Assembly (NCBI GenBank): GCA_041389025.1
Contig: JAWKSP010000002.1
Location: forward strand, 105,279 to 169,278
DNA: 64,000 nt
Reading direction: 5' to 3'
DNA from: Minisyncoccota bacterium
GTDB lineage: Bacteria > Patescibacteriota > Minisyncoccia > Phycocordibacterales > UBA918
Below the pieces are notes generated by a model. That model did not search any database and was not told the DNA's origin. It was given only the letters and a program-made list of their open reading frames with translations. How positions within the stretch are numbered: position 1 is the stretch's first letter; every line of letters begins with the position of its first letter. Below are positions 18,886 through 32,572 of this stretch, one piece after another. The position numbers and the translations under genes were made by a program.

Positions 18886-18913
18886 AAAAGTGACTGTAGA
18901 ATACAAAGAAAAA

Positions 18914-19189
18914 TCACTTTTGTCTAGCGAAAAGTTGTATTTTTTTAACTTTATTAAGTTTTTTTAGTGACAACTCACATTTTGTGGCTTCACTACGAGA
19001 TTTAAAAGTTTTTTTGTAGACTAACTCCACTGGACGGCGAACTTTAGTATATTTGGCACCAAGTTTATCATCTTCATTATGCTCTTTGACGCGCCTTTTT
19101 AAGTCTGTAGTAATACCAGTATACAGAGTATCATCGGCACACCTAAGCATGTAGACATACCAGACTACTTTATCACTATTTTTTTTCAT
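18914..19189 (-). CDS. GIY-YIG nuclease-family protein (UPF0213-like).
   Basis: VVWYVYMLRCADDTLYTGITTDLKRRVKEHN is the GIY-YIG motif. Confidence 0.8.
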   Translation of the reverse strand: MKKNSDKVVWYVYMLRCADDTLYTGITTDLKRRVKEHNEDDKLGAKYTKVRRPVELVYKKTFKSRSEATKCELSLKKLNKVKKIQLFARQK

Positions 19190-19258
19190 AAACTACCGTT
19201 AAAAGCCTGATCACCATACCAATAAAGCCAAACCAAAAAAATCACTACCACTAAAATT

Positions 19259-19948
19259 TTAATTAGAGTTTTGAACATTATTAAAGTTAGTTTTGACTCT
19301 TTGTCGCTTTCGCCAAACCAGATAAAATAAAATTGTAATAGTAATTATCCCTAAAGGATAATAAACATATGACGAACGAAAAATACTAAAAAATGAGTCG
19401 TCTAAGAAGGAATTTATTGTCTTTATGTGTAATAATTCAGAAAAATAGCTATGATTACTATCATCCTGACCGATGGTTAACATGTATTTTCCTCTATTTT
19501 CCGGTGTACTAACTTCAATTCTATATGTGCCAGAAGTTACTTTGACACTTAAATCATTACTAACCTTTAGCTTGAGACCTAATTTTCCATCCGATATCGT
19601 GTTCCATTCTATATTTTTTTGATTAAGACGTCCTACTTCTTGGACACCCCCACCCTTTTCTTTCTCCTTTACTACAATTAAAGAAAAAGGAATTGGTGAA
19701 TTTAAATTTGTCGCTAACTGAGCTAATGATAAAGTAAGTTCAGTGGTGGTACTGGAATTAAATTCATACATGTGTGGGTCATTTTTTAGTTCCCCTAAGT
19801 ACTGATATTTAGTTTGAATATCTGAATTTATCGAGGTTAACTCATAAGGGATTGTAGTGGTGTTTATAGACGGATTATAAGCCAAAGAAACCAACGGCAG
19901 AAACAACAGAGGCAAGCTCATTAAAAATATACGTGGAGTAAGTGACAT
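19259..19948 (-). CDS. Hypothetical secreted or membrane protein with a signal peptide and a C-terminal TM.
   Basis: N-terminal LMSLPLLFLPLVSLA. C-terminal ITITILFYLVWRKRQR. Confidence 0.5.
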   Translation of the reverse strand: MSLTPRIFLMSLPLLFLPLVSLAYNPSINTTTIPYELTSINSDIQTKYQYLGELKNDPHMYEFNSSTTTELTLSLAQLATNLNSPIPFSLIVVKEKEKGGGVQEVGRLNQKNIEWNTISDGKLGLKLKVSNDLSVKVTSGTYRIEVSTPENRGKYMLTIGQDDSNHSYFSELLHIKTINSFLDDSFFSIFRSSYVYYPLGIITITILFYLVWRKRQRVKTNFNNVQNSN

Positions 19949-19964
19949 AATAAAATAATAGCAA

Positions 19965-19999
19965 AGAAACAGCCGGCGACAAAGTCGCCGGCTGTTTCT
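19965..19999 (-). terminator. Terminator hairpin with a 16-bp perfect stem, AGAAACAGCCGGCGAC / GTCGCCGGCTGTTTCT, and loop AAA.
   Basis: Perfect inverted repeat located downstream of gene 20053..20655. Flanks are A/T-rich. Confidence 0.6.
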
Positions 20000-20052
20000 T
20001 TCTTAAACTATTAACAATTTTAATATTCAGTAGAATAAAATTTTACAAACTT

Positions 20053-20655
20053 TTAATTAGCCAATCCTGCCTCTTTTAAAATTTCTTTTATAGTTTCTTT
20101 GTCGTTTGATTGTCTGGCTACCATTAACGCGTCTTGCTGTTCAGGAGTCAGATCAAGCCACTTTTTACCTTTTTTTCCATGATGTTTTCCTTGACTACCA
20201 AATTCCTCACCAACACCAAGCTTATCTAATTTTACCTTTGCTTCTTCAAATTCTCCATTTTGCCTTAATTTCAATGCTTCTTTAAAAAGTTCAAAGTCGG
20301 CTTCAGTGGTGACTATATCACTTAATGGAGTGCCTACAATTAAACCTTTGAAATTGTCATAATCACCAGATAAAACAGACTCATACAATTCATGACGCAG
20401 ATTATGAGATAATTTTTTTAGCTCTTTCAGTTTTTCTTCATCAACCCCAGCTTCTAATAATATATCTCTGGCTTTTTTATTATCACCATGCGCTCTTAAT
20501 TCTCGAGCTTCAGCCAAAGCTTCAATTTGACTTGGTGAAAAACCAGCTTTTTCCAGCCTATCTACACCAACATAAGCTTGTACACCAGTAGCGGTGACAG
20601 CAAAAGCGGCGATAGCTATTAGTAATGATTTTGATTGCATATTTTCAATTTTCAA
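20053..20655 (-). CDS. Hypothetical secreted helical protein.
   Basis: Signal peptide ...ATGVQA. Lys/Glu-rich helical repeats. Confidence 0.5.
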   Translation of the reverse strand: MKIENMQSKSLLIAIAAFAVTATGVQAYVGVDRLEKAGFSPSQIEALAEARELRAHGDNKKARDILLEAGVDEEKLKELKKLSHNLRHELYESVLSGDYDNFKGLIVGTPLSDIVTTEADFELFKEALKLRQNGEFEEAKVKLDKLGVGEEFGSQGKHHGKKGKKWLDLTPEQQDALMVARQSNDKETIKEILKEAGLAN

Positions 20656-20668
20656 ATTTCAATAAAAT

Positions 20669-20710
20669 AAGAGTAACAAGACGTCTCTTGTTACTCTTAT
20701 TTTTACGTAA
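20669..20710 (-). terminator. Rho-independent terminator: AAGAGTAACAAG-ACGTCT-CTTGTTACTCTT followed by a T-run.
   Basis: 12-bp perfect stem. ATTTTATTG follows on the minus strand. Located downstream of gene 20732..21238. Confidence 0.6.
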
Positions 20711-20731
20711 TTTTAAACACCCTATTTCACT

Positions 20732-21238
20732 TTAAATAGTTTCAAAATAACTCCACAATTTTTCAAGGCTTGTCCAAGTCCTACTGTTATAGTCTACTGT
20801 TGTTCTACAAGTATCCAGTATATACTCCTCACTATCAATAGTTATTTTGAAATTATAATCAACTCCCCCCTCTTTTGAATCACATTTTTGTACCAAACGG
20901 CGAGAAGTTTGTTTTTCTAACTCATTCAAATTTACCATTCTTTGCAATTCATTTCTTAAACTCCTATCGATCACTCCTTCTTTTATGATATCTCCGACTT
21001 CAGTTTTAGTGGTAAGTAAGCGATAAGAACCAGTCGAGACAATAAGCTGAAAAGACATACAACCTTTTACACTGCAAGATCCATAAGCTTCGGCTTCAAT
21101 TGTATAATCGTCATAAATTTTACTATCAGGAATTAAGGAGAACTCAAAATGAAAGCCAGTTAGAAAAAAATAAAAACCAGCGACAAATCCCATTATAAAG
21201 GTTATGAGTATACTCAACTTATCTTGTCTGGTTATCAT
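20732..21238 (-). CDS. Hypothetical membrane-anchored, Cys-containing protein.
   Basis: N-terminal TM ILITFIMGFVAGFYFFLTGF. Confidence 0.45.
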   Translation of the reverse strand: MITRQDKLSILITFIMGFVAGFYFFLTGFHFEFSLIPDSKIYDDYTIEAEAYGSCSVKGCMSFQLIVSTGSYRLLTTKTEVGDIIKEGVIDRSLRNELQRMVNLNELEKQTSRRLVQKCDSKEGGVDYNFKITIDSEEYILDTCRTTVDYNSRTWTSLEKLWSYFETI

Positions 21239-21265
21239 GTTTGATAAAATTATAACATTGAAAGG

Positions 21266-21310
21266 GAAAATAAAAGCCCCGCGCCTACGGCGCGGGGCTT
21301 TTATTTTCCC
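21266..21310 (-). terminator. Rho-independent terminator: AAAGCCCCGCGCC-TACG-GCGCGGGGCTTT followed by a T-run.
   Basis: 13-bp GC-rich stem and TTTTATTTTCCC on the minus strand, downstream of the cupin gene. Confidence 0.75.
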
Positions 21311-21313
21311 ACC

Positions 21314-21724
21314 TTATTCTCTATCAGCAGTAGTCACACCGTCAAAGTGCTCTTCTTTTTCATCAGCTTTGGTTGGTTGCACAACCCCGTCTTTATGCTC
21401 TGGTGTTGAGTAAATAGTGTAAAGTTTTAAATCTTCACTTCCTTCATTTACTACATTATGCCAAGTTCCAGCCGGAATAATCACCACATGATCAGCTGGT
21501 AACTCATATTCATCTTTATTGTTAAGTATCACTTTACCAGTACCGGCCTCTGATCTGATAAATTGGTCTAAACCGTGAATTTCATTTCCAATTTCTTCCC
21601 CTGGTCGAATATTCATGACCACTAACTGCATATAGCGACCAGTATAAAGTACTCGACGATAATCAGTATTGTTTATTGTTTCTTCTTCAATATTAGCTAA
21701 ATATTCTTTCATAAGACTAACCAA
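21314..21724 (-). CDS. Cupin-domain protein.
   Basis: GEEIGNEIHGLDQFIRSEAGTGKV...IPAGTWHNVVNEGSEDL is the cupin 2 conserved barrel. Confidence 0.7.
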   Translation of the reverse strand: MVSLMKEYLANIEEETINNTDYRRVLYTGRYMQLVVMNIRPGEEIGNEIHGLDQFIRSEAGTGKVILNNKDEYELPADHVVIIPAGTWHNVVNEGSEDLKLYTIYSTPEHKDGVVQPTKADEKEEHFDGVTTADRE

Positions 21725-21777
21725 GAATTAAGGTAATAATTCACAATAATAACACAACTAACTAGTTTTTGTTAAAA

Positions 21778-22317
21778 CTATTCAGACAATAATTTTCCAA
21801 GTTTAATCCCTAAAACCAAATCATCAACCGCTCCAAACAGTATTTCTCTTAATTTTCCTTGTTTATCAATGATAATTAATGAAGGAGTACCATTCAAAGC
21901 AAAATTTTTCATACTTTCTGGTAATCGACTGTTATCATTGTGCTTATCAATTGCCACCGGAAAAGTATAACGAAATTCTGACAAAAAAGCCTCAAGAGAC
22001 TCTTTTTGCATAGCTTTATGATGTTCAAAAACTGAATGTAACCCTAAAACTACTAACTTTTCCTCATCAGCAAACATTGAATGAAGTCGTTTGGCTTGAG
22101 GTAAGCTATGCGTTACACACCCTGGACAAAGCATTTGAAAAGCTTCGATAATAATCACTTTACCTTTTAGGTCAGTTAAATTAATATTCTTTCCTCCAGT
22201 ATTTAACCACTCACTAACCACCAATTCCGGCAGTTGTGTCATAACACCATCATTATCGTCTTTTACCTCACAAACCCCATCTTCACAGTTAACCTCTTTT
22301 TTTTGTTTATCAGTCAT
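21778..22317 (-). CDS. Thioredoxin-fold thiol-disulfide oxidoreductase (TlpA/redoxin-like).
   Basis: CxxC motif in FQMLCPGCVTHSLPQA. Thioredoxin-like length and context. Confidence 0.65.
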   Translation of the reverse strand: MTDKQKKEVNCEDGVCEVKDDNDGVMTQLPELVVSEWLNTGGKNINLTDLKGKVIIIEAFQMLCPGCVTHSLPQAKRLHSMFADEEKLVVLGLHSVFEHHKAMQKESLEAFLSEFRYTFPVAIDKHNDNSRLPESMKNFALNGTPSLIIIDKQGKLREILFGAVDDLVLGIKLGKLLSE

Positions 22318-22331
22318 GTACTTATTGTAAC

Positions 22332-23000
22332 TTATATCAAATCAAAGGAAACTTCTTCAATATTGGTTACACACACCGCTTGCAATTCATTAGTCTCACT
22401 AAATTTTGGCTCCAAACTAAACTGCACCACTCCTTGTACATCAGTTCCTGGAGCAAAGCTGATTTTTTCCTTGCTTAGACTATGAGTACCACTAAACATA
22501 GCCGGTACCTCAGCCATCACCACACCCTGTTCCTTGACTTCAATATCTCCTGGAGATTCAAAAGTAATATCAACTACCCCCGGATTCTCACCACACATAG
22601 CTACTTCACCCAACCTTACAATGTGATTATGCCAAATTGGATCAGAAGCATCTTTTTGCATCTCACTATCCAAGACTCCACCATGAGTAGTGGCTACAAT
22701 CACTTGGTCAGTACCCTTGTCAGTAATAATACCGTAACCAACTGCTCCATTCTCGCCATTTAAAGGCATAAGTCCCATGGCTTTCAAATCAGCAGTAAAA
22801 TCAGCTGATTTTTTTGTTATTTTTGCTTCAGATAAATGATGGTCAATTCCCATTTCATGACTTTCCATATCAGACATTTCTTCTGACATAGCTGTATCAA
22901 TATTTTTTTCAGCAATTTCTTTTTCATCACTGCCAATGAATAAAAATACTCCGATTAGCGCAACAGCAATGACTCCAAAGATCAAAACATTATTGTTCAT
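22332..23000 (-). CDS. Hypothetical membrane-anchored extracytoplasmic protein.
   Basis: N-terminal TM VLIFGVIAVALIGVFLFIG followed by an acidic, Met/His-rich segment. Confidence 0.5.
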   Translation of the reverse strand: MNNNVLIFGVIAVALIGVFLFIGSDEKEIAEKNIDTAMSEEMSDMESHEMGIDHHLSEAKITKKSADFTADLKAMGLMPLNGENGAVGYGIITDKGTDQVIVATTHGGVLDSEMQKDASDPIWHNHIVRLGEVAMCGENPGVVDITFESPGDIEVKEQGVVMAEVPAMFSGTHSLSKEKISFAPGTDVQGVVQFSLEPKFSETNELQAVCVTNIEEVSFDLI

Positions 23001-23145
23001 ATTATTTAATTTAGTTTAAATTTTTAAGTTAATTAATTCATGTCACCCAACATGTACCTGAAGTATAGCCCATTGATTTATTTTTTAAAGTAGCTATAAT
23101 AAAGTAACCTAGTTAGAATTACTAAAGTTTTATTGATTTATAAGC

Positions 23146-23484
23146 ATGAAAACAGATAACCAATTGGGGATAGAATTTAATAAAGATTGCTCCATTCGCA
23201 AAGCTATTGAGATAATTGGCCAAAAACACTCAATTTTAATTTTTAATGAACTGTTAAAACATCAAGTTTTACGCTTTGGCGAACTAAGAAGAGTACTTGG
23301 TAATCTAAATACCGGTACTCTTAGTATAACTTTAAAGCAACTGGAAGATTCTGGTTTAATTAGACGTACAGTTTTTAGTGAAATACCACCTCGAGTTGAA
23401 TATTCTTTAACCGATAAAGGTAAGGAATTGGAAAAAGTCTTAATTCAACTCCAATTATGGTATGAAAAATGGTACAAAGATTAA
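23146..23484 (+). CDS. HxlR-family winged-helix transcriptional regulator.
   Basis: CSIRKAIEIIGQKHSILIF..LRFGEL...PPRVEYSLTDKGKEL is the canonical HxlR signature. Confidence 0.85.
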   Translation: MKTDNQLGIEFNKDCSIRKAIEIIGQKHSILIFNELLKHQVLRFGELRRVLGNLNTGTLSITLKQLEDSGLIRRTVFSEIPPRVEYSLTDKGKELEKVLIQLQLWYEKWYKD

Positions 23485-23581
23485 AATTTTAAAAAAATTA
23501 AAATAAAATTGACTGCCCATCAAAAAGATGGTATTTTTGGCGCCAGTAGTTTTTTAAAAATACTTTTTTACGAGGTGTAGG

Positions 23582-24304
23582 ATGAACACAGATGTTAAAT
23601 GTAGTAGTCACACAAGATTCCCTTTAACAGTTTACTACATAATTTCAATTGGAGTATTTGGTATTTTTTGTCTTTCATACGGGTACGATTTAAAGGTCTT
23701 AGAAAAAACAACCTGGACTACAATAAATACCGTTTTATTTTTTCTACTTTTTTTAGGAGCTATTATCACTCTAGTGATATCATCTTTGCTAAATAGTGGA
23801 AATTTTATAAAATATTTTTTTGTATTTCTAGTTCTTTTCCTGTTGGTTGGATTATTGACAATCATATACCTACCCAATAACAATCATTATTCAGTTATTG
23901 GTAACAAGACAACATACTCTAAGCTTGTTTTTAGAAACCCATTAAAGCATAGCCACGCTATTACCATAAATAAAGAATATGGTTTTGACCGTTTGACTTT
24001 TGAAGTGACAAGACAAGATTTGACAAAATACAAGATATCTTTAATTGGTAATCATAAACTTAATCTAGAGAATGAGGAAGAATTACTGCAGATAGTACGA
24101 TTGGCAGAAGCTGCAAATCTTACTCCAAACGAATTTATTAATAAATATCAAACGAAGCAAATAGTAAATGTTGTAAAAAACTATTTCCTTGATGAAAAAT
24201 CTAAAAATCTTCAATTATTCCTACAAAAGAATCTTGATTTAAGTGAATGGTTTTTAGTCCATAAAAAAGGAAGTATTCAGATATTGGAGTTAGAAGAATT
24301 ATAA
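23582..24304 (+). CDS. Hypothetical polytopic membrane protein.
   Basis: About 4 TM helices in the N-terminal half. Confidence 0.5.
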   Translation: MNTDVKCSSHTRFPLTVYYIISIGVFGIFCLSYGYDLKVLEKTTWTTINTVLFFLLFLGAIITLVISSLLNSGNFIKYFFVFLVLFLLVGLLTIIYLPNNNHYSVIGNKTTYSKLVFRNPLKHSHAITINKEYGFDRLTFEVTRQDLTKYKISLIGNHKLNLENEEELLQIVRLAEAANLTPNEFINKYQTKQIVNVVKNYFLDEKSKNLQLFLQKNLDLSEWFLVHKKGSIQILELEEL

Positions 24305-24445
24305 AATATTTTATGGCAATAACTTACGGGTACTGAAACATTTTGGTACCCATTTTATTTTCACAGTTTACACAAACCCACCACTTATGATATAAAGTTG
24401 ATCTAAGTGGTTCTTTTTATTTTTTAAAGTAAAGAAAGGAAAAAA

Positions 24446-24712
24446 ATGAGTGTGACAACACATGAAGTTTTAGTTTTTTTAAACAAACAAAGTAACACAA
24501 CTGATATAAACTATCAAACTCTTAGGAAATTAAGTGTTTCATTAAGTACATACTTCAGTAAGATAGCAGTTGAATTAAAAGATATAGTTATTGAAATATA
24601 TAGTATTCAATATCTCCAAAACTCGAGTCACTGTACTATATTGTGTGAGATAAATGGTGAGAAACTTAAAATTTTCACTCCAAGAAACACAGTGACCAAA
24701 GTTAAAGTATAA
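24446..24712 (+). CDS. Small hypothetical protein.
   Basis: ORF only. Precedes the sipW cluster on the opposite strand. Confidence 0.3.
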   Translation: MSVTTHEVLVFLNKQSNTTDINYQTLRKLSVSLSTYFSKIAVELKDIVIEIYSIQYLQNSSHCTILCEINGEKLKIFTPRNTVTKVKV

Positions 24713-24814: not shown

Positions 24815-26518
24815 CTATATTTCAATCTCATCTATAACCACTGTTTCCTCAATCTTTTTTTCTGGTTCTTCTATCACTTCTTCTACAACTTCATTATTCT
24901 CCTCAACTAATTCTTCTACCACCTCCTCAACAATAATTTCTTCCACAACATCAACCTTAGTTTCGCTAGATTTATCATTTACATCGGCTTGTTCATTAAT
25001 ATTATTTTCTTTTTCTTCTTGGTTATTTTGATTAGTATTTTGCTCTATTTCATTTTCATCTATTTGTCCTAACATCTCTTCTTTATCTTCGGTTGGTATG
25101 GTTGGCTTTTCGATAAATTCCTCTATTGTCTGTTCTTCTCCATTTTTTTCTTCACTATCGTTACTAGAAATAAAGGTTTGACTATCAATTACCAGTGGTA
25201 GAGTCATGGCTGGCTCAGCAATATTTCTAGTAAATTCAAAAGTTACAATTTCAGTGTCAATATAACCGCTGCCAGCCGTCTCACCATCAAGATAAGCGGT
25301 AAATATTAAATCTACTATACAAGGTGTTACTCCATAATAAAAATCAGATAAAGAAAAATCTAGTAAGAAGTCATTACCAATAATGGTCTCAGTTTTATTT
25401 AAATTAAGCAGATTTCCATTGTAAGAAAGCGGCGCTTCTGCTTTAACAGTAATCAAACCACACAAAGCAGAAGCGCCGCTTTCTTTTACTTCAATTTTAT
25501 AAACCAAACTCTCTTTTACTCGATTATCTAAATCAATACTAACCTCTGTAGTAGTGGTACCCAAAATATTATCATCTTCAGTCAAGAAATTTGTCTTAGA
25601 AGCAAAAATTGAAAAATCAACAGCTGTTGCCTGCATGCTGTTTGCAAAACTAATTTCTGTATCAGTTGGATAAGCAAAGGTAGTCATGTCTCCCAACATT
25701 TGCATAGAAACAAAAACCAGCAATACAAACCCCGCCACTACTGTTGAAGCCTGCGGTCTAATATCATGTGAAAAATTATAGCTATTTTTTTGTTCAACTA
25801 TCTTACCAGTAGAAGGTTCTATCATTTTTCTAGTTTTACCAGTTGGTTCTATATCCATTTTTTTTGTTTTAACGACTCTAGTTGGTAAATCAACTTTTAA
25901 GTTAACTTTTCTTAATGAATTTGCTGTTTGTATTTTTTTTACTTTTTGCTTTGAGCTATTTGGATCATAAGGAGTAATCACCAGCGGCACGACCATATCT
26001 TTATCAAATCTAAGTCCACGCATTCTTCTCACTTCCAACCAAATTTTTATTAGTTCATCTAGAACAATCAAAAAAGCCGGAATACCAACCAAAAGCCCAA
26101 AACCCAATGGTTGTCTGGCAAAATCAAGCATAAAACCAACGTACGGTATATCAAAGACTACTTTTCCAATAACATCACCGGCCGGTACCGGTTTTGCGTC
26201 TCTATCTTCGTTGGCGTCACCTTTGGTTATAAAATAACTCTTTCCATTTATATTTTCAGTATCAATTATCCTATGTGTAGTCGGAATCTTAGCGTTTTTA
26301 TCTGCAAAAGTGATAATATCACCAACTTTATAACTTTCAATTTCATGAATAGCCACCACTGCTCCAGTCATAATAGTTGGCTCCATCGAACCAGATTTCA
26401 CTATTTTAACTTCAATATTTCCAACCCCTGGAATTGGTGGCGCCATTAGCAAGAAAACCAAACCCAAAACGATTAGGATAAAAATTGTATAGGTGATATT
26501 ACTAATAATTTTTTTCAT
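24815..26518 (-). CDS. sipW: Archaeal/ER-type signal peptidase I (SipW-like, S26B) fused in frame to a TasA-like module that has its own internal SipW-cognate-type signal sequence and an acidic C-terminal tail.
   Basis: N-terminal 190 aa: TM, then VKIVKSGSMEPTIMTGAVV...IPTTHRII...FITKGDANEDRDAKPV..GKVVFDIPYVGF, then a second TM. These are the SipW / S26B catalytic Ser and His boxes. It is followed by a basic linker and VVAGFVLLVFVSMQMLGDMTTFAYPTDTEISFANSMQATAVDFSI, which resembles the GAFFSDTETS..N.FTAG..DL motif of the downstream paralogues. No stop codon separates the two parts. Confidence 0.8.
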   Translation of the reverse strand: MKKIISNITYTIFILIVLGLVFLLMAPPIPGVGNIEVKIVKSGSMEPTIMTGAVVAIHEIESYKVGDIITFADKNAKIPTTHRIIDTENINGKSYFITKGDANEDRDAKPVPAGDVIGKVVFDIPYVGFMLDFARQPLGFGLLVGIPAFLIVLDELIKIWLEVRRMRGLRFDKDMVVPLVITPYDPNSSKQKVKKIQTANSLRKVNLKVDLPTRVVKTKKMDIEPTGKTRKMIEPSTGKIVEQKNSYNFSHDIRPQASTVVAGFVLLVFVSMQMLGDMTTFAYPTDTEISFANSMQATAVDFSIFASKTNFLTEDDNILGTTTTEVSIDLDNRVKESLVYKIEVKESGASALCGLITVKAEAPLSYNGNLLNLNKTETIIGNDFLLDFSLSDFYYGVTPCIVDLIFTAYLDGETAGSGYIDTEIVTFEFTRNIAEPAMTLPLVIDSQTFISSNDSEEKNGEEQTIEEFIEKPTIPTEDKEEMLGQIDENEIEQNTNQNNQEEKENNINEQADVNDKSSETKVDVVEEIIVEEVVEELVEENNEVVEEVIEEPEKKIEETVVIDEIEI

Positions 26519-26523
26519 GTTTT

Positions 26524-27726
26524 TTATGTATTTTTATTCCAATCAAAACGGAAAAATAAACTATTAAATCTATCTCTTATTGACTTAGTAAAGAAATTTT
26601 CTTCAACTACCACTGGATAAAAATTTTCACTTTGCCCAGAAGGAAGACCATCATCGTCAGTATTATCGTTTTCGTCGTTAGAATTCCCTGGGTTTGAGTC
26701 ATCATTATGATCATCATCATTACCATGACCGTTATTACCTTTTGGTATACATGGTTTGCCATTTTGATCTACATATTCTTGTCCTAAAGCTTCGTATTTA
26801 ATCTGCCCAGAAGGAAGACCCTCATCGTCAGTATTATCGTTTTCGTCGTTAGAATTTCCTGGGTTTGAGTCATCATTATGATCATCATCATTACCATGAC
26901 CGTTATTACCTTTTGATTTTAATTTACAATAATTTTGTGGCGGTACTTTTTTATCACAAGAAAAACCTTCATTATATTTAGCTTGTACTGCTCGCAAGGA
27001 AACATCAACTGTCATTGAATCAGTTTGGCTTTCGTTACCCATCATTTTTCCGTCACAATTAACTTCTGCCGTATCAGTATTTACCATCAAATCTCCAGCA
27101 CACCATAATATACCCACATAATTAACCGAACCAGCCTTACAATAATTACCAGAATTAGAATAAGTGTTAGCTACAGCGTAAGTAGTACTAGCCAATAATA
27201 CATTAGCAGTTTTTGTACTGGTACCAAAAATTATCCTTTCACCAACCTCAAATTTATTGTCTCCATCGTCTTGCCAAGCAAAAAATTGTAGGTTTTGTGA
27301 TAATTCTCCACCAACTTCAGTATCCACCAATCCTTCCGGCTCGTTTGTACCATTTTCATGATCTTCTAAGTTGCTAAAATCAAGGCAAACATAAGCATCA
27401 TTCTTTTTTACATGCAAACTAATCAAATGTTCTCCTAAGTCACCTGGTTTAACATCATTAAAATTGAAAAATTTATCTGCTTTTGGTACTAGATTTTTAG
27501 CTTCCCAAGTAAGTGACGGTTGCAAAACACCATTATAAATTGCTTTACTTTCTACTGTTAGTTCTAATCCGGTTTTTTTATCTTTAGAATTATTATCTTG
27601 ATAATTACCGGTAGCAAAAGTGTAGCCGGCGTTAGCTCCGCTAACGCCGGCTACCACCAACAATAAAACTACTACTCCAACCAAAAGTGAAACTTTAACT
27701 CCTTTCTGGTAGATAAAACTTGTCAT
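26524..27726 (-). CDS. Secreted TasA-like paralogue. It shares the FNFNDVKPGD..ISLHV..NDAYVC...ENGTNEPE core with the other paralogues. It contains a duplicated 57-aa His/Asp/Asn-rich module.
   Basis: Core homology to the three upstream paralogues, including LGNESQTDSMTVDVSLRAVQAKYN. The N-terminus ...VAGVSGANAGYTFATGN is atypical. Confidence 0.7.
   Translation of the reverse strand: MTSFIYQKGVKVSLLVGVVVLLLVVAGVSGANAGYTFATGNYQDNNSKDKKTGLELTVESKAIYNGVLQPSLTWEAKNLVPKADKFFNFNDVKPGDLGEHLISLHVKKNDAYVCLDFSNLEDHENGTNEPEGLVDTEVGGELSQNLQFFAWQDDGDNKFEVGERIIFGTSTKTANVLLASTTYAVANTYSNSGNYCKAGSVNYVGILWCAGDLMVNTDTAEVNCDGKMMGNESQTDSMTVDVSLRAVQAKYNEGFSCDKKVPPQNYCKLKSKGNNGHGNDDDHNDDSNPGNSNDENDNTDDEGLPSGQIKYEALGQEYVDQNGKPCIPKGNNGHGNDDDHNDDSNPGNSNDENDNTDDDGLPSGQSENFYPVVVEENFFTKSIRDRFNSLFFRFDWNKNT
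26635..26919. repeat. 171-bp tandem direct repeat, about 1.7 copies and over 95% identical, inside gene 26524..27726.
   Basis: The unit starting CCCAGAAGGAAGACC at 26635 recurs at 26806. It encodes KGNNGHGNDDDHNDDSNPGNSNDENDNTDD(E/D)GLPSGQ twice. Confidence 0.85.
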
Positions 27727-27788: not shown

Positions 27789-29168
27789 TTAATTTGGTAT
27801 AACCGCACAGTTAAGTGCACTAATAGCATCTAGGTCATAACCATCGGCGGTTGCTTCAAATGGTGCTCGTGGTGATACGTCAGTTATTCTTACATATTTG
27901 GCCCAAGACAAACCAGAGCTTGCTAAATCAGCTTCTGAGTCACGATCTACACTAGCGGTTACTAAATACCAATCAAGCCCATCCTGACTTACCTCAATTT
28001 TAATTTTTTCTACCGGATAACTACTACCACCAGTTACTTCCCAAGCTCGCAAATCATTACCTGGCCCATCCACTATATAACCATCATCAAACTCAACTGT
28101 AATCCACCCTCCTTCAGTCTCGTTTTCATCTGGGTTAAAACCAAGACTAAAGAAGCTATTTGGTACAACTGGATTATCAAATGGTGTACCAAGACTTTGT
28201 GGAGCACCGATTACGTAAGATTCCACTGAACGACCAGCGTCTACTGGAGCACCATTTTTCTTTACTCCCTGTGACACTGCTATTACCTTGGTGGCGTATG
28301 ATTGTTCTGGTGTACAAGCCACTTGATTTGGTCTACATACAAAATCAGAATTATGTCGCGCTTGTACCGCACTAAATGACACATCTGCAGTTAAAGAGTC
28401 GGTTTGACTTTCGTTACCAAGCTTCGCTCCACTACATAGAAATCCTCCATCAGCTGGTTCACCCGCTTCTCCGTTATTATCGTTATCGTCAGCTGGACTC
28501 CATTCGTCCACCTCACCATCCTGATCTAAAGCTTGTGGTTCCATATCACCAAAACACCATGCTTTACCAATATAATAGGTCTCAGTTCCATTTATAGGAC
28601 CACCAAGAGCATTTTCATTCCAAATGTTAGTGTTTGAGTCGGCTAGCGCGATTGAATATGCTTGACCAATCGGTAGAGACCCAATTGGGGCTGGACCGGA
28701 AATTATCTCTTCATCATCCTCATAGACATTATCACCATCGTCAGCCCACCAAATGAAGTTTACCAAACCAGCCAACTCACCTTCGTCATCATCGATTGTT
28801 TGGTCAACCAAAGCCTCCGGCTCTGTTTGACCATTTTCATTATTTGAAGTTAGGGTTACATCAGCACAAACAAAAGAATCATTATTTTCTACGTGGATAG
28901 AAATAGTATCTTCACCATAATCCCCTGGCTTCACATCATCAAAATCAAAGAATTTTTCAATGGTTAAATCTTTCTTTTCCCATGATGTATTGTCGTTAAA
29001 AAGACCATTGTAATAGCTTTCGTTGTCTATCAGCAAGTCAATTGCTCCGGCGGTAAAGATGTTGTCGGTGGAGTTTTCTGTATCATTAAAAAAAGCTTTA
29101 GTCACCCCAAAAGCCGTAACACTGGCGGTTACCAAAATCATTGCCAAACTTAGAAAAATACGTCGCAT
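27789..29168 (-). CDS. Secreted TasA-like protein with a SipW-cognate signal peptide and a C-terminal beta-sandwich (galactose-binding/discoidin-like) domain.
   Basis: N-terminus MRRIFLSLAMILVTASVTAFGVTKAFFNDTENSTDNIFTAGAIDL. Core FDFDDVKPGDYGEDTISIHVENND. The C-terminal domain ...GGWITVEFDDGYIVDGPGNDLRAWEV...WAKYVRITD...ADGYDLDAISAL is called from its pattern only. Confidence 0.7.
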   Translation of the reverse strand: MRRIFLSLAMILVTASVTAFGVTKAFFNDTENSTDNIFTAGAIDLLIDNESYYNGLFNDNTSWEKKDLTIEKFFDFDDVKPGDYGEDTISIHVENNDSFVCADVTLTSNNENGQTEPEALVDQTIDDDEGELAGLVNFIWWADDGDNVYEDDEEIISGPAPIGSLPIGQAYSIALADSNTNIWNENALGGPINGTETYYIGKAWCFGDMEPQALDQDGEVDEWSPADDNDNNGEAGEPADGGFLCSGAKLGNESQTDSLTADVSFSAVQARHNSDFVCRPNQVACTPEQSYATKVIAVSQGVKKNGAPVDAGRSVESYVIGAPQSLGTPFDNPVVPNSFFSLGFNPDENETEGGWITVEFDDGYIVDGPGNDLRAWEVTGGSSYPVEKIKIEVSQDGLDWYLVTASVDRDSEADLASSGLSWAKYVRITDVSPRAPFEATADGYDLDAISALNCAVIPN

Positions 29169-29330: not shown

Positions 29331-30812
29331 TTAGTTAATTGGGCAATCTGCCAAACCAGCTAAAATATTTTCAAGATCAGAAAACTCAGCGGCTGTAAAG
29401 TAATGAGCTGGTGAAGTAGCAATACCTTCTAGGAAAGTATTATTTACTCCATCACCAATACCAACTACGTATATAGTAGTACCGGCAGCTTTAGCGGCGT
29501 TAGCAGCTATTACAGCTGTTCCTTCGTCATCTGGTACACCATCAGTCATGATAAGCATAAAATCCGGTGCTTCTAAGACATCATCCCGGTCGCGTACACC
29601 AGAAAGCTCGGTTGATGCTAGACTAATACCAGCAGCTAGATTGGTAGTACCCCCTGAAGACAAGGCGTCAATAGCGGTATTGATATCAGCTAACACGTCA
29701 GTCAATTGTGAGTTTAAGGTAGCACCAAAATCAAAGTCCACCACACCAATGTGGTTGCCAGGGGTAGCTGGGGCTAATGCAGAAGCAAAAGCTTTCGCTG
29801 CAGTAGACATAACCCCTAACTCAGCAGGACTAATGCTACCTGATGAGTCAAGTACAAACACTACGTCATTTTCTTCGTTACAAGCCAATCCTCCATCTCG
29901 CTCATCACAAACAAAGTTTGGATTATTTCGAGCTTGTTCAACTCGAAAAGCAATATCAGCTGTCATACTGTCTGTTTGAGCTTCGTTCTTCATAGTTGAG
30001 CCATCACAAGTAACAGTTCCTTCAATTGAGGCGTCGATAGTACCAGCACACCAAGCTAACCCAATATACTGTGTAGTAGCCCCAGGGAAAGGAGTACCAG
30101 TAGTTGAATCTGCCAAAGTATAAGTTCGTCCACCAAGTACATCACTAGCTGGCCCAGAAACATTTGAGAATAGTTTTGGTTCTCCAGTCTCCCAAATATT
30201 GTCTCCATCATCAGCCCACGCAAAGAAAGTCATATTTTGAGCCAACTCTCCATCAAAATCATCGTTATTGTCCTCCGCCACGTCACCACTTTCAAGTTCC
30301 GGCTCAGTTGAAGAGACATCATCATTTTTAGTAATATCTACATCAACACACATCCATGCATCGTTATTTTCAACGTGTAATGAAATAGTGTTTTCACCGT
30401 TATCACCTGGTTTAACATCTTCAAAATCAAAGAAAGTATGAACTCCATCTTCAAGATCAGTCAAAGACCAAGTTCCAGCACAAGCATCACCAGCTTGTGG
30501 GACGTTAGCTGGGTTGGCAGTGTTGTAAGCAGTGTTGGCTGTGTCAATATCTTCACCATCTTTTAGTGCCAAATGAGCTGGTGTATCACCTTCTTCTGGC
30601 ACCCATTCAATAATATCTTCATCAGTCCAAGCACCATCAAAACAAACCAAACCATTGATATGCGCTACGCTGTCAACTTTTAGATCTAAAGCACCGGCGG
30701 TAAAGACGTTACCGGTAGAAGTCTCGGTGTCAGAGAAGAAAGCTCCAGTACCAGAAGCGACCAAAGCGACCGCAAATACGATCATTCCTAGACTTGTAAC
30801 AATTTTTTTCAT
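29331..30812 (-). CDS. Secreted TasA-like protein with a SipW-cognate signal peptide and a C-terminal von Willebrand factor A (vWA) domain carrying a MIDAS motif.
   Basis: N-terminus MKKIVTSLGMIVFAVALVASGTGAFFSDTETSTGNVFTAGALDL. The vWA part is VVFVLDSSGSISPAEL... (D-x-S-x-S MIDAS) ...MIMTDGVPDD...IYVVGIG. Confidence 0.8.
   Translation of the reverse strand: MKKIVTSLGMIVFAVALVASGTGAFFSDTETSTGNVFTAGALDLKVDSVAHINGLVCFDGAWTDEDIIEWVPEEGDTPAHLALKDGEDIDTANTAYNTANPANVPQAGDACAGTWSLTDLEDGVHTFFDFEDVKPGDNGENTISLHVENNDAWMCVDVDITKNDDVSSTEPELESGDVAEDNNDDFDGELAQNMTFFAWADDGDNIWETGEPKLFSNVSGPASDVLGGRTYTLADSTTGTPFPGATTQYIGLAWCAGTIDASIEGTVTCDGSTMKNEAQTDSMTADIAFRVEQARNNPNFVCDERDGGLACNEENDVVFVLDSSGSISPAELGVMSTAAKAFASALAPATPGNHIGVVDFDFGATLNSQLTDVLADINTAIDALSSGGTTNLAAGISLASTELSGVRDRDDVLEAPDFMLIMTDGVPDDEGTAVIAANAAKAAGTTIYVVGIGDGVNNTFLEGIATSPAHYFTAAEFSDLENILAGLADCPIN
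30690..30812. repeat. Copy B of a roughly 125-bp duplicated gene 5' end, 2 mismatches from copy A at 32450..32572.
   Basis: Base-by-base comparison shows only 2 substitutions. It encodes the identical signal peptide MKKIVTSLGMIVFAVALVASGTGAFFSDTETS. Confidence 0.9.
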
Positions 30813-30922: not shown

Positions 30923-32572
30923 TTAGTTGTGCGGAAAAGCACTCACTTCTTCAGGTATAAAGTCAACCTCGTCTGTGCCACCAGTTTGAGCAGCTCCACC
31001 ATTTGGACCCCAGAAGTTGTTAATAGCGTTAACATTTCCTGCTAAGGCGCCATAGGTATTTAACATTGTTCCATCCAAGAAATTATTGAACTGCACAGTG
31101 GCTGGATTCGCATCGTGTGTCGAATCTGCCCCAACAGCTTCTGAACCAGGTACTGTATGTTCAAATTCATTGTATTGAACAGTTACTCCATTAAGTCCAC
31201 CAATACCGGCAGTGTTACCGTCGATGTCGTTATACTCGATTACAATAGTTCCAGTGTGTGGATTGGTGTAAATACCAGTTGTTAAATCGTGAATATGATT
31301 TCTAACAATATCTACATTTGAATAGGTAGCAGCGGTTACTGTCTCAACTCCACGTGAACTAGCCTCACTTAAACCATCAATGTCGTTGTAAGAGACTTCA
31401 ACGTTACTTAAATCACCATTAAGGTAAACAGCAGCGTTGGTTCCCAAGAAAGAACCTGGATTAATCACAAAACCAGTAAGTGTCACATCATCTGCCTCAA
31501 TAATCACACCGTTCTGGATGGTAGCTGTATTAGTCGGGCCATTCACAGAAGCTAGGGTTAACGGTTTATCAATAGTCACTGTTTCATCATAGCTACCGTC
31601 CCCAACACAAACAACGTCACTTGGTGTAGCACTATTAACCGCATCTTGAATTGACTGACTATCATCAGCTACCGTAACGTCACAACTTGGTGCCACATAG
31701 TCAGACAAGGATGCTCCTACCAGTTGACGTGGCTCTTGCCCTCCATCAAGTGGTGGTAAAGAAGCACATCTAAACGCATCGTTGTGACGAGCTTGCACCG
31801 CATGGAAAGCTACATCAACTTCGATACCATCGGTTTGAGCATCATTATGGTCGCCTTGCGCGCCAGTACAAGCAAATCCGGTATTATCAACAGTCGGTGC
31901 CCCATAATCATCTTGAGGCACTGCATCAGGTGAAATATCACCAAAACACCATCCTTTTCCAATGTAAGCGGTTTCTCCACCAGAGAACGGTTCGTCACCT
32001 GACTCAGCCAAAGCTAGCCAGTTACCTGTAAAGATTTCACTTGAAAGACCACTTAAAGCGTCGATGATTTTTTCATCATCTTCCAAGACATTGTCTCCGT
32101 CATCGTGCCAGAAAAGGAAAGAAAGATAATTTTGCAGCTCTCCTTCGTCAGCGCCGGCTGTGTTATCAACGTCCACTTCTGGCTCAGTCTGATCATTTTC
32201 CGGCGTTCCGGTCAAGTCAAACGCCATACAGGCATAAGCGTCATTGTCGTTCACATGCAAGGAGATAGTATCTTCACCATAATCCCCCGGTTTTAAATCA
32301 CGGAAGTTAAAGAAGAGCTGATCCGTCAAATCAGACAACTCCCACGAATTACTGTCGTTTGGTCCCCATACACCAGTCGCCTGATCTAGCGGGATAGCTG
32401 GGTTATTCCAATCAAACCCATAGCTGGAATTATCAATCAAAAGATCAATAGCTCCGGCGGTAAAGACGTTACCGGCAGAAGTCTCGGTGTCAGAGAAGAA
32501 AGCTCCAGTACCAGAAGCGACCAAAGCGACCGCAAATACGATCATTCCTAGACTTGTAACAATTTTTTTCAT
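30923..32572 (-). CDS. Secreted TasA-like protein with a SipW-cognate signal peptide and C-terminal right-handed parallel beta-helix repeats (pectate-lyase/NosD-like).
   Basis: Same N-terminus as the downstream paralogue. Core NFRDLKPGDYGEDTISLHVNDNDAYACM. The C-terminal part has repeated V/I-x-N-x-I segments: VTLTGFVINP, VEVSYNDIDG, DIVRNHIHD, IVIEYNDIDGN, VTVQYNEFEH. Confidence 0.75.
   Translation of the reverse strand: MKKIVTSLGMIVFAVALVASGTGAFFSDTETSAGNVFTAGAIDLLIDNSSYGFDWNNPAIPLDQATGVWGPNDSNSWELSDLTDQLFFNFRDLKPGDYGEDTISLHVNDNDAYACMAFDLTGTPENDQTEPEVDVDNTAGADEGELQNYLSFLFWHDDGDNVLEDDEKIIDALSGLSSEIFTGNWLALAESGDEPFSGGETAYIGKGWCFGDISPDAVPQDDYGAPTVDNTGFACTGAQGDHNDAQTDGIEVDVAFHAVQARHNDAFRCASLPPLDGGQEPRQLVGASLSDYVAPSCDVTVADDSQSIQDAVNSATPSDVVCVGDGSYDETVTIDKPLTLASVNGPTNTATIQNGVIIEADDVTLTGFVINPGSFLGTNAAVYLNGDLSNVEVSYNDIDGLSEASSRGVETVTAATYSNVDIVRNHIHDLTTGIYTNPHTGTIVIEYNDIDGNTAGIGGLNGVTVQYNEFEHTVPGSEAVGADSTHDANPATVQFNNFLDGTMLNTYGALAGNVNAINNFWGPNGGAAQTGGTDEVDFIPEEVSAFPHN
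32450..32572. repeat. Copy A of the duplicated gene 5' end. See 30690..30812.
   Basis: Near-identical to 30690..30812. Confidence 0.9.

What the first reader, a model, noticed from the sequence alone, without database searches (positions are those of the whole stretch)
24815..26518. Signal peptidase fused in frame to its own substrate-like module
The 567-aa ORF has a complete SipW-like peptidase in residues 1 to about 190: TM, SGSMEP, THRII, TKGDAN, GKVVFDIPYVGF, then a second TM. Without any stop it continues into a basic linker, a hydrophobic segment, and TFAYPTDTEISFANSMQATAVDFSI. That segment resembles the SipW-cognate cleavage-region motif of the four upstream paralogues. A beta-rich domain and a long acidic tail (EEVVEELVEENNEVVEEVIEEPEKK) follow. 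A peptidase covalently linked to a cognate-type signal would be unusual. Possibilities are autoprocessing, a membrane-tethered fibre base, or a mis-joined gene pair.
Basis: seen in the sequence. Interest (0 to 1): 0.75.

Follow-up and report, generated by a model that had tools for sequence, protein, structure and literature searches.

The report
Signal peptidase fused to fibre-initiator substrate
In this candidate-phyla-radiation bacterium, the membrane enzyme that trims the subunits of a TasA-like surface fibre is joined in one protein to a small secreted protein that keeps its own signal peptide and cleavage site. This join is a real, conserved gene fusion of two neighbouring genes, and it probably cuts itself apart.

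Summary
ORF 24815-26518 (-) encodes 567 aa. It starts with an intact archaeal-type/SipW-like signal peptidase I (residues 4-157, TIGR02228 E=2.7e-34) with two membrane helices. A basic cytoplasmic linker follows, then a third hydrophobic helix, then T-F-A|Y283-P-T-D-T-E-I-S..N. This motif matches, position by position, the signal-cleavage/donor-strand motif of three of the four upstream TasA-like genes. An Ig-like beta-sandwich (AF2 pLDDT >90) and an acidic tail complete the protein.

It is not a mis-join. More than 100 Patescibacteria homologues share the architecture, including one on a 1.09-Mb single-contig genome.

Among 80 species-representative genomes, 60 encode sipW and this module as two adjacent, usually overlapping genes. 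The free module often has an ordinary N-terminal signal peptide. The third helix is therefore a former signal peptide.

The -3/-1 positions are T/S in 220 of 222 homologues and S/A in 219 of 222. This argues that the SipW domain cleaves the fusion.

Motif, complete Ig domain with a conserved Cys pair, and disordered tail together mirror B. subtilis TapA, the initiator of TasA fibres. No sequence or fold membership in TapA was found.

Verdict: a new variant of a known system. Cleavage is inferred, not shown.

The parts
24815..26518 (-). Whole fused gene, 567 aa: SipW-type signal peptidase plus substrate-like module.
   Evidence: ORF. The identical protein is on record as NCBI 'MAG: signal peptidase I [Candidatus Paceibacterota bacterium]' on a 250-kb contig.
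26048..26509 (-). Signal peptidase I domain, archaeal/SipW type (residues 4-157). It includes TM1 (residues 4-30, 26429-26509), Ser44 (26387-26389) and His82 (26273-26275).
   Evidence: TIGR02228 E=2.7e-34, 118 bits against cutoff 51.85. S44, H82, D101 and D107 are invariant in 24 homologues. The AF2 model is confident here.
26039..26113 (-). TM2, the C-terminal membrane helix of the peptidase (residues 136-160).
   Evidence: Hydropathy peak. AF2 helix 137-168. The LDFARQPLGF motif is invariant or nearly so.
25751..26038 (-). Basic, disordered linker predicted to be cytoplasmic (residues 161-256). It carries two conserved motifs: PLV(V/I)xP(Y/F)xP (25961-25987) and RMMDI (KKMDI here, 25850-25864).
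   Evidence: 22 K+R against 10 D+E. pLDDT below 50. Across 87 fused homologues the median length is 74 aa and the median net charge is +8; D222 is kept in 73/87 and I223 in 70/87. The same M.DI.P-type motif lies in the N-terminal region of free modules.
25688..25750 (-). TM3, an internal signal-peptide h-region (residues 257-277).
   Evidence: Hydropathy peak. AF2 helix 256-273. It aligns collinearly with the signal peptides of the upstream paralogues and with the N-terminal signal peptides of free modules.
25670..25681 (-). Predicted SipW cleavage site, T280-F281-A282 | Y283.
   Evidence: Over 222 homologues: position -3 is T in 205 and S in 15; -1 is S in 164 and A in 55; +1 is Y in 202 and F in 18; +2 is F in 159. 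The register is the same as T-G-A|F-F in the paralogues. It also matches B. subtilis TasA, which has Phe at P2' (PMC10269814, abstract; the TasA sequence itself is from my own knowledge). Cleavage is inferred, not shown.
25607..25672 (-). Donor-strand-like N-terminal motif of the mature module, YPTDTEISFANSMQATAVDFSI (residues 283-304).
   Evidence: Conserved positions: +4 D in 210/222, +6 E in 210/222, +8 S, +15 A in 204/222, +18 L, +19 D, +20 F. Position +11 was fixed as N by the locating pattern, and +1, +4 and +6 were restricted to small residue sets by it. N293 is invariant in the independent 24-sequence alignment. hhalign against the paralogue family gives E=1.2e-5. Residues 283-297 are low-confidence coil in the monomer models. 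The segment corresponds to the TasA donor strand, residues 28-38 (PMC9674648).
25199..25621 (-). Ig-like beta-sandwich domain (residues ~300-440) with a conserved Cys pair: C353 (25460-25462) and C400 (25319-25321).
24818..25186 (-). Acidic, low-complexity C-terminal tail (residues 445-567).
   Evidence: Residues 451-567 hold 43 D+E in 117. The tail varies in length (1-324 aa, median 78) and is about 31% acidic in homologues. Free modules carry a lamin-tail domain instead.
30923..32572 (-). First gene of the operon: fibre-subunit candidate with a SipW-type signal/donor-strand N-terminus and a beta-helix C-terminal domain.
   Evidence: TIGR04088 24.0 bits (cutoff 19) and PF12389 25.4 bits (cutoff 22.5), both covering only the first ~50 residues. 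Beta_helix and NosD-like hits are below their cutoffs.
29331..30812 (-). Second subunit candidate, with a VWA C-terminal domain.
   Evidence: TIGR04088 24.6 bits, PF12389 33.2 bits, VWA E=1.6e-25.
27789..29168 (-). Third subunit candidate, with a weak discoidin-like C-terminal domain.
   Evidence: TIGR04088 (15.8 bits) and PF12389 (18.9 bits) are both below cutoff, and F5_F8_type_C is weak. It shares the conserved ~270-aa core with the other paralogues.
26524..27726 (-). Fourth paralogue, lying 5 nt upstream of the fused gene. It has the same core domain but a divergent N-terminus (GANAG|YTFATGN) and two copies of a 37-aa Asp/Asn/His-rich repeat (26632-26742 and 26803-26913).
   Evidence: Alignment A5. 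Repeat coordinates. Orthologues hold the same position in L001, L003 and L005.

Best explanation
The ORF is a genuine gene fusion. It is the last gene of a five-gene operon on the minus strand (32572 to 24815) for a TasA-like surface fibre that probably polymerises by donor-strand exchange.

The N-terminal part is the dedicated SipW-type signal peptidase. It has two membrane helices and its active site faces outward.

The C-terminal part was once the separate gene immediately downstream of sipW. That gene encoded a secreted protein with four elements:
- its own SipW-type signal peptide, which is now TM3;
- an N-terminal strand motif like that of the fibre subunits;
- a complete Ig-like domain;
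- a variable tail.

Proposed mechanism, all inferred:
1. After membrane insertion, TM1 runs in-to-out and TM2 out-to-in. The basic linker stays in the cytoplasm, and TM3 runs in-to-out.
2. The peptidase domain cuts at T-F-A|Y283, either in the same molecule or in a neighbour.
3. This leaves a three-helix peptidase in the membrane and releases the 285-aa module.
4. The module's newly exposed N-terminal strand inserts into the acceptor groove of a fibre subunit. It thereby starts or caps the polymer, as TapA does for TasA in Bacillus subtilis.
5. Fusion fixes a 1:1 ratio of peptidase to initiator. It also places the initiator where the subunits are processed.
For: Shown by tool results:
- The peptidase domain is intact.
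- The architecture is conserved in more than 100 homologues and in syntenic operons. One is on a single-contig 1.09-Mb genome, and one identical protein is carried on 24 contigs.
- Among 80 species-representative loci, 60 have sipW followed by a separate, adjacent or overlapping module gene, and 11 are fused.
- Free modules often begin with classical signal peptides. An example is MKKKSNKIIALTLILLLTLGFSGVEKTNA|YYDDKETSGGN.
- The cleavage-site logo gives -3 T/S in 220/222 and -1 S/A in 219/222. Neither position was imposed by the search pattern. The logo is followed by Y-F-x-D-x-E-x-S-x-x-N in the same register as the paralogues.
- hhalign of the module against the paralogue family gives E=1.2e-5.
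- TIGR04088 scores on 15 of 87 fused homologues.
- The motif is unstructured, and the Ig domain is confident and compact without it, in the monomer models.
- Short fused forms keep only TM3, the motif and a tail.
- In an NJ tree, fused forms sit in several places among split lineages. This fits a fusion that is tolerated because the products are separated afterwards.

From the literature:
- The TasA donor strand is the first 11 residues of the mature protein, created by SipW cleavage (PMC9674648).
- TapA has a 43-aa signal sequence, a 14-residue N-terminal unit that suffices for biofilm formation, a complete Ig domain with a disulfide, and a dispensable disordered C-terminus. Its gene overlaps sipW (PMC10151520).
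Against: - Cleavage was not observed. No proteomic or experimental data were available.
- TIGR04088 does not score on this protein's own module.
- The linker, and the long N-regions of many free modules, carry conserved motifs (RMMDI, PLVxAPYxP) that a disposable signal peptide would not need.
- The upstream genes match TasA/camelysin models only over their first ~50 residues. Their core fold was not determined, and their profile finds nothing in the PDB. Fibre formation by donor-strand exchange is therefore itself an inference.
- The NJ tree has no support values.
Confidence: 0.55

Rival explanations
1. Permanent membrane anchor. The module is not cleaved. The whole 567-aa protein stays intact as a three-helix membrane protein. 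Its extracellular strand and Ig domain tether the base of the fibre to the cell next to the processing enzyme.
For: - The linker and the N-regions of free modules carry conserved cytoplasmic motifs. This suggests the membrane-proximal part has a lasting role.
- TapA is described as an anchoring protein that colocalises with the membrane (PMC10151520).
- These organisms need some way to hold fibres on the cell.
Against: - The -3/-1 small-residue rule is kept in about 99% of 222 homologues, although the search did not select for it.
- Many free modules have ordinary short signal peptides.
- The strand motif begins immediately after the hydrophobic helix. In TasA the donor strand starts at the very N-terminus created by cleavage. 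An uncleaved strand would sit at the membrane surface and would be hard to insert into a globular subunit (inference).
Confidence: 0.2
2. Dual expression. As well as, or instead of, the full-length protein, translation starts internally at M221 (25856-25858). This Met aligns with the N-terminal Met of some free modules, so the cell still makes two proteins and the fusion has little functional effect.
For: - Free modules such as those in L054 and L057 start with MK(V/I)ID(I/V)KP, which matches the fused RMMDI.P motif.
- Both the annotated start and M221 are preceded by A-rich sequence with no Shine-Dalgarno motif, so neither looks better than the other.
Against: - In other free modules the same motif lies 15-20 residues inside the protein, for example VYVRQRMTDGVF in L019. 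It is therefore a motif rather than a start signal.
- Met at this position is kept in only 43-50 of 87 fused proteins.
- The frame is open and conserved across the junction.
Confidence: 0.1
3. Tethered pseudo-substrate. The substrate-like segment occupies the peptidase's binding groove without productive release. It regulates when the fibre subunits are processed.
For: Covalent linkage of an enzyme to a substrate-like motif is a common form of autoinhibition (general knowledge). The motif is highly conserved.
Against: - The same module is a free secreted protein with extra extracellular domains (LTD, Ig-like) in most relatives. That fits an extracellular structural role, not a regulatory one.
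- No evidence points specifically to inhibition.
Confidence: 0.05
4. Assembly or sequencing artefact. A frameshift error in the A-rich junction joined a ~190-aa sipW to the next gene.
For: - Only one contig carries this exact protein.
- The linker coding region holds two A8 tracts.
- In split relatives the two genes overlap in different frames, so a single indel could fuse them.
Against: - The fused frame is conserved in the whole clade around the window (window plus L010-L015) and in more than 100 proteins from independent samples and assemblers.
- In-frame conserved motifs lie on both sides of the junction.
Confidence: 0.03

Closest known systems
B. subtilis tapA-sipW-tasA system (SipW peptidase, TasA fibre subunit, TapA initiator/anchor)
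   Same: - A dedicated archaeal-type signal peptidase is encoded together with its substrates.
- The substrates share a T-x-A|(A/F/Y)-F-x-D N-terminal motif that becomes the donor strand.
- There is a minor partner protein with a long signal region, a strand homologous to that of the major subunit, a complete Ig-type domain with a Cys pair, and a disordered C-terminal tail.
- The partner's gene overlaps sipW (for Bacillus; here).
   Different: - The partner lies downstream of sipW, not upstream. In this clade it is translationally fused to sipW.
- No sequence or fold match to TapA (6HQC/6QAY) or TasA (5OF1) was obtained.
- There are four subunit paralogues with add-on adhesin-type domains (VWA, beta-helix, discoidin-like) in place of one TasA.
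- The host is Patescibacteria.
Split sipW + module gene pairs of other Parcubacteria lineages (e.g. Campbellbacteria complete genome CP011215.1, locus L046)
   Same: The peptidase clade, module family (strand motif plus Ig domain) and operon position after the TasA-like genes are all the same.
   Different: There are two genes, usually overlapping by a few to tens of nucleotides. The module has its own N-terminal signal peptide and usually a lamin-tail domain (PF00932) after the Ig domain, instead of an acidic tail.
Archaeal bundling pili AbpA/AbpB and other chaperone-free donor-strand filaments (threads, cannulae)
   Different: In Thermoproteales no dedicated peptidase gene is found near the operon. 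Here the peptidase is not only dedicated but fused to the accessory protein.
Chaperone-usher pilins and chaperones (FimH, CfaE/CfaB, AggA, Caf1M, FaeE)

Membership tests
Archaeal/eukaryotic-type signal peptidase I (TIGR02228, sigpep_I_arch) | Whole-protein score above the curated cutoff over the full model length. | tested here: met
   118.3 bits against a cutoff of 51.85. Residues 4-157 cover model positions 2-156 of 158. All 87 fused homologues match.
Archaeal/eukaryotic-type signal peptidase I (TIGR02228, sigpep_I_arch) | Catalytic Ser and His (rather than the Lys of LepB-type enzymes), plus the conserved Asp residues. | tested here: met
   S44 in SGSMEP, H82 in THRI, and D101/D107 in GDAN..D are invariant in alignment A1. 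Their assignment as catalytic residues rests on established knowledge of SipW/Sec11, not on a test here.
Bacillus SipW equivalog (NF046067) | Score above the equivalog cutoff of 190 bits. | tested here: not met
   115.1 bits. The protein is SipW-like in type and context but is not an equivalog of the Bacillus protein.
SipW-dependent-type signal peptide proteins (TIGR04088, cognate_SipW), applied to the C-terminal module | Match to the 34-position signal/cleavage-region model above 19 bits. | tested here: inconclusive
   The window's own module gives no hit at E up to 10. Among 87 fused homologues, 15 hit at E up to 0.1 (best 5e-4). The position-by-position logo agrees with the paralogues that pass the cutoff. 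hhalign gives E=1.2e-5.
SipW-dependent-type signal peptide proteins (TIGR04088), applied to the C-terminal module | Cleavage by the cognate SipW. | not testable with these tools
   Only the conserved -3 T/S and -1 S/A positions, and the free homologues with classical signal peptides, speak for it.
TasA/camelysin (PF12389, Peptidase_M73), applied to the C-terminal module | Pfam match over the ~196-position domain, and a jelly-roll core like TasA. | tested here: not met
TasA/camelysin (PF12389), applied to the upstream paralogues | Pfam match above the gathering score. | tested here: inconclusive
   Two of the four pass (33.2 and 25.4 bits against 22.5), but only over profile positions 4-52. One is below the cutoff and one has no hit. 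The core fold was not modelled, and the family profile finds nothing in the PDB.
TapA/YqxM (TIGR04087) | Sequence match to the TapA model or to the solved TapA structure. | tested here: not met
   Two of 87 homologues give weak hits (best E=0.061). A PDB sequence search with the module profile finds no TapA. TapA is absent from the listed fold matches.
TapA/YqxM (functional analogy only) | Architecture: long signal region, strand homologous to the major subunit, complete Ig domain with a disulfide, disordered tail, gene coupled to sipW. | tested here: met
   compared with PMC10151520. The disulfide is inferred from the conserved Cys pair only.

The most novel reading that the evidence does not exclude
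A type I signal peptidase is naturally fused to its own preprotein substrate and processes itself. Each enzyme molecule is made with one copy of the fibre initiator attached. Self-cleavage then both matures the enzyme, leaving a three-helix form that keeps the spent signal peptide, and releases the primer for a donor-strand fibre at the site where subunits are being processed. The fusion seems to have arisen more than once in Parcubacteria, and the fibres carry VWA, beta-helix and discoidin-like adhesin domains. This could be a main attachment organelle of these host-dependent bacteria.
Probability: 0.45. Interest if true: 0.72.

Novelty: new variant of a known kind. Interest (0 to 1): 0.6.

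Why it matters
- A signal peptidase covalently joined to a cognate preprotein would be a natural single-chain enzyme-substrate pair. It could be used to study how SipW/Sec11-type peptidases recognise and position their substrates, which include the Phe/Tyr-rich P1'/P2' sites that LepB handles poorly. The assay is simple: one band or two.
- The finding defines a large module family with no matching model in the Pfam or NCBIfam libraries searched: 1,851 cluster representatives at E up to 1e-3. This module appears to be the Patescibacteria counterpart of TapA.
- A TasA-like fibre operon is widespread in Parcubacteria, with at least 532 relatives of the peptidase among species-representative genomes. 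Surface attachment in these organisms has mostly been discussed in terms of type IV pili (my own knowledge).
- I found no description of the fusion in the searchable literature. The presence of TasA homologues in Patescibacteria has been noted (PMC9245690).

Tried and rejected
- TIGR04088 and other NCBIfam models on the isolated module gave no meaningful hit.
- Pfam on the fused protein gave only weak S24/S26 hits and nothing for the module.
- The PDB sequence search with the module profile returned only chance-level CopC hits (E at least 0.25).
- The PDB sequence search with the paralogue profile returned nothing.
- The afdb50 fold library was unavailable.
- The search for related loci with the module alignment failed for lack of a conserved 7-10-column stretch. 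The full-length alignment was used instead.
- Some apparently free modules from short contigs are truncated fused genes. L009/P0173 reads through upstream without a stop. The fused/split ratio was therefore taken from species-representative genome loci, not from protein lengths.
- The promoter/terminator scan was uninformative: promoter-like sites were not above shuffles, and terminator-like sites were only about 2 sd above.
- I looked for a Shine-Dalgarno motif before M221 to test internal initiation. None is present, but none precedes the annotated start either.
Full report

Yes. The ORF listing gives one uninterrupted 567-aa ORF at 24815..26518 on the minus strand.

Residues 4-157 match the archaeal-type signal peptidase I model TIGR02228 at E=2.7e-34 (118 bits, cutoff 51.85). 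They match the Bacillus SipW model NF046067 at 115 bits, which is below its equivalog cutoff of 190.

Hydropathy shows three membrane-spanning segments: 4-30, 136-160 and 257-277. The 96-residue stretch between the second and third has 22 K+R against 10 D+E. By the positive-inside rule the linker is cytoplasmic, and everything after the third helix lies outside, on the same side as the peptidase active site.

Directly after the third helix comes T280-F-A-Y-P-T-D-T-E-I-S-F-A-N. A relaxed form of this motif occurs four times in the six-frame translation of the whole window: three upstream genes and this internal site. Shuffles give 0.02. The tail is acidic, with 43 D+E in 117 residues.

- The peptidase domain ends near residue 166, not 190.
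- Only three of the four upstream genes carry the motif.
- TIGR04088 does not score on this module on its own.

**2. Is it an artefact?**

No. The identical protein is on record from an NCBI Paceibacterota MAG with a 250-kb contig. A homology search returned 253 proteins at E up to 0.001. The best 120 are mostly 440-640 aa long and cover 70-99% of the query. Where a source names them, they come from Paceibacteria, Nomurabacteria, Minisyncoccia or the Patescibacteria group.

Alignment shows conserved in-frame motifs on both sides of the junction:
- PLV(V/I)xP(Y/F)xP and RMMDI in the linker;
- the third helix;
- G-x-T-x-S-Y-F-x-D-x-E-x-S-x-x-N-x-L-x-A-x-x-L-D-F;
- a domain with a conserved Cys pair;
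- a variable acidic or Pro-rich tail.

An orthologue of 548 aa lies on the 1.09-Mb single-contig genome CP060227.1. Another, identical 475-aa protein is carried on 24 contigs from several samples. In each case the gene is the last in an operon of three TasA-like genes. A short form of 375 aa holds the same operon position.

**3. What is the C-terminal part?**

I built a profile from the module alone, covering the third helix through the beta domain (alignment A4). I searched it against 1.84 billion cluster representatives. This gave 1,851 hits at E up to 1e-3 and 1,110 at E up to 1e-10. In some hits the module starts around residue 220-250 of a ~500-aa protein. In others it starts within the first 60 residues.

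Some of the second kind are mis-called fragments of fused genes on short contigs, for example L009. Others are truly separate:
- In L006 a 181-aa sipW ends with a stop, and the module gene overlaps it by 29 nt in another frame.
- L007 and L008 show the same arrangement.

To get an unbiased count, I scanned one genome per species (GTDB) with the full-length alignment. At least 532 stretches encode relatives, and the best 80 loci were kept. Most are titled as Patescibacteria lineages: Nomura-, Kaiser-, Taylor-, Campbell-, Vogel-, Moran-, Giovannoni-, Buchanan-, Wolfe-, Zambryski- and Nealsonbacteria. A few carry unrelated labels, probably from binning or automatic naming.

Classifying the loci with HMMs for the two parts gave these counts:
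- 60 split: a sipW of about 170-215 aa, then the module in the next ORF, usually overlapping;
- 11 fused, including two short forms;
- 10 with sipW only.

The complete Campbellbacteria genome CP011215.1 is split.

Free modules often begin with a textbook signal peptide. Examples are MKKKSNKIIALTLILLLTLGFSGVEKTNA|YYDDKETSGGN and MKQSRNKIISSALVFFLALGFLGVGRTSA|YYSDTEISTNN. Others have long basic N-regions that carry the same M.DI.P-type motif as the fused linker. After the Ig domain, all seven free modules I tested carry a lamin-tail domain (PF00932).

The third helix of the window protein is therefore a former signal peptide. The fusion joined sipW to its downstream neighbour.

In an NJ tree of the peptidase domains, the window protein sits in an all-fused clade with L010-L015. 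Other fused forms sit among split lineages. This suggests repeated fusion or fission, but the tree has no support values.

**4. Is the internal signal still a cleavage site?**

I aligned 222 module homologues on the motif. The pattern I used did not constrain the upstream positions. Even so:
- position -3 is T in 205 and S in 15;
- position -1 is S in 164 and A in 55;
- position -5 is G in 148.

These are the small-residue -3/-1 positions that type I signal peptidases require (established knowledge).

The following residues are:
- +1 Y, +2 F, +4 D, +6 E, +8 S and +11 N;
- +13 L/F and +15 A;
- +18 L, +19 D and +20 F.

Position +11 was fixed as N by the pattern, and +1, +4 and +6 were restricted by it to small residue sets. 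N293 is, however, invariant in the independent 24-sequence alignment.

The upstream paralogues read T-G-A|F-F-S-D-T-E-T-S-x-G-N-x-F-T-A-G-A-(I/L)-D-L in the same register. B. subtilis TasA reads GTWA|AFNDIK (sequence from my own knowledge), and a Phe at P2' is the stated hallmark of this SipW substrate (PMC10269814, abstract).

Profile-profile comparison of the module with the paralogue family gives E=1.2e-5, mostly from this segment. TIGR04088 scores on 15 of 87 fused homologues.

In TasA fibres the donor strand is residues 28-38, the first eleven residues created by SipW cleavage. F29, I32 and F39 make the hydrophobic contacts (PMC9674648). These map onto +2, +5 and +12/+13 of the motif here. 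An uncleaved strand would begin at the membrane surface. Cleavage is therefore the simpler way for it to work as a donor strand. This last step is inference.

**5. Structure**

- The AF2 model of residues 1-470, built with 87 sequences, has mean pLDDT 76. The peptidase domain and all three helices are confident. The linker (170-255) and residues 277-290 are below 50. Residues 300-440 are above 90.
- The model of residues 275-445 has pLDDT 87 and pTM 0.78. It is an eleven-strand sandwich, and the part of the motif before L-D-F is unstructured.
- A PDB sequence search finds nothing.

The fold fits a pilin- or TapA-like role but does not prove one.

**6. Comparison with TapA**

Published work describes TapA as having these features (PMC10151520):
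- a 43-residue signal sequence;
- an N-terminal unit (residues 44-57) that is homologous to the TasA N-terminus and suffices for biofilm formation;
- a complete Ig domain with a disulfide, which keeps it out of the filament body;
- a dispensable disordered C-terminus;
- low abundance, like SipW;
- a gene whose stop overlaps the sipW start.

It is proposed to donate the first strand (PMC9674648).

The module here has the same list of features. The short fused forms, which keep only the helix, motif and tail, parallel the TapA minimal unit.

There are also differences:
- The gene order is reversed.
- No sequence or fold membership in TapA was found.
- The C-terminal add-on varies between an LTD domain and an acidic tail.
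- In this clade the module is fused to the peptidase.

**7. Mechanism I commit to (confidence about 0.55)**

The fusion is real. The SipW domain cuts at A282|Y283, in cis or in trans. The released module starts or caps a donor-strand fibre built from the upstream paralogues. The peptidase keeps the spent signal peptide as a third helix.

- Shown: domain identities, topology signals, conservation of the site, the split/fused distribution, and the Ig-like fold.
- Inferred: cleavage, donor-strand function, and fibre formation by the paralogues. The paralogues match TasA models only over their first ~50 residues, and their core fold was not modelled.

Rivals:
- uncleaved anchor (0.2);
- internal initiation at M221 (0.1);
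- tethered pseudo-substrate (0.05);
- artefact (0.03).

The conserved cytoplasmic motifs remain unexplained. They are the main reason not to rate simple signal-peptide removal higher.

**8. Novelty**

The components and the logic are known: SipW, cognate signals, TasA-like subunits and a TapA-like initiator. TasA homologues have already been noted in Patescibacteria.

Three things appear to be new:
- the module family, which has no Pfam or NCBIfam model;
- its systematic pairing with sipW across Parcubacteria;
- its fusion to the peptidase in this clade.

I found no paper describing this. I rate it a new variant of a known kind, with interest 0.6.

Noticed in passing
window 26524-27726 (-), repeats at 26632-26742 and 26803-26913: The paralogue just upstream of the fused gene (5-nt gap) lacks the FFSDTE motif and has GANAG|YTFATGN instead. 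It carries two copies of a 37-aa repeat, KGNNGHGNDDDHNDDSNPGNSNDENDNTDD(E/D)GLPSGQ. Orthologues with the same N-terminus and an NGHGN.(D/E)D motif hold the same position in L001 and L003. L005 shares the position and the N-terminal type. A subunit with no donor strand could be the distal end of the fibre.
   Followed up: partly
window 32478-32572 and 30718-30812 (-): The first ~95 nt of the first two paralogues are identical at the DNA level, covering the signal peptide and the start of the strand motif. Downstream they soon diverge, and the upstream regions differ. This suggests gene conversion or a recent partial duplication.
   Followed up: partly
window 27622-27654: A perfect 15-bp inverted repeat with a 3-nt loop (GTAGCCGGCGTTAGC GGA GCTAACGCCGGCTAC) lies inside the signal-peptide coding region of the fourth paralogue. 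It was reported by the terminator-like scan.
   Followed up: no
window 25850-25864 and 25961-25987 (-); also the N-regions of free modules in L019, L039, L043, L054, L057 and L069: Two conserved motifs lie in the segment predicted to be cytoplasmic: RMMDI(x)P, and in the fused proteins also PLV(V/I)xP(Y/F)xP. The MDI-type motif also occurs in the long N-regions of many free modules. An ordinary signal peptide would not need such motifs. Their function is unknown.
   Followed up: partly
L020, L023; proteins P0085, P0087, P0096 (locus L005): Short fused forms (375-390 aa for these three proteins) keep the peptidase, linker, third helix and strand motif but lack the Ig domain. The motif runs straight into a Pro/Glu-rich tail. 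This recalls the TapA 1-57 minimal unit.
   Followed up: partly
L024, L034, L037, L046, L065, L080, L019 (module genes downstream of sipW): Free modules are often large, 457-1440 aa among the seven tested. All seven carry a lamin-tail domain (PF00932) after the Ig domain, and one also has a bacterial surface Ig-like domain.
   Followed up: partly
L006 6942-8716 (opposite strand): In one split-type locus, the TasA-like operon is followed by genes with the type IV pilin N-methylation motif (PF07963) on the other strand.
   Followed up: no
window 17004-24712, compared with L001 and L003: The block downstream of the operon is syntenic with the Nomurabacteria genome CP060227.1 and partly with L003. 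It includes an HxlR-type regulator (23146-23484), a redoxin (21778-22317), a cupin (21314-21724), a GIY-YIG protein (18914-19189) and a BipA/TypA GTPase (17004-18788). Family names are taken from the Pfam hits on the L001 orthologues. This probably reflects relatedness rather than function.
   Followed up: no
window 25858-25865 and 25933-25940 (-): Two A8 homopolymer tracts lie in the linker coding region. They are possible sites of slippage or sequencing indels, and of natural switching between fused and split states.
   Followed up: no
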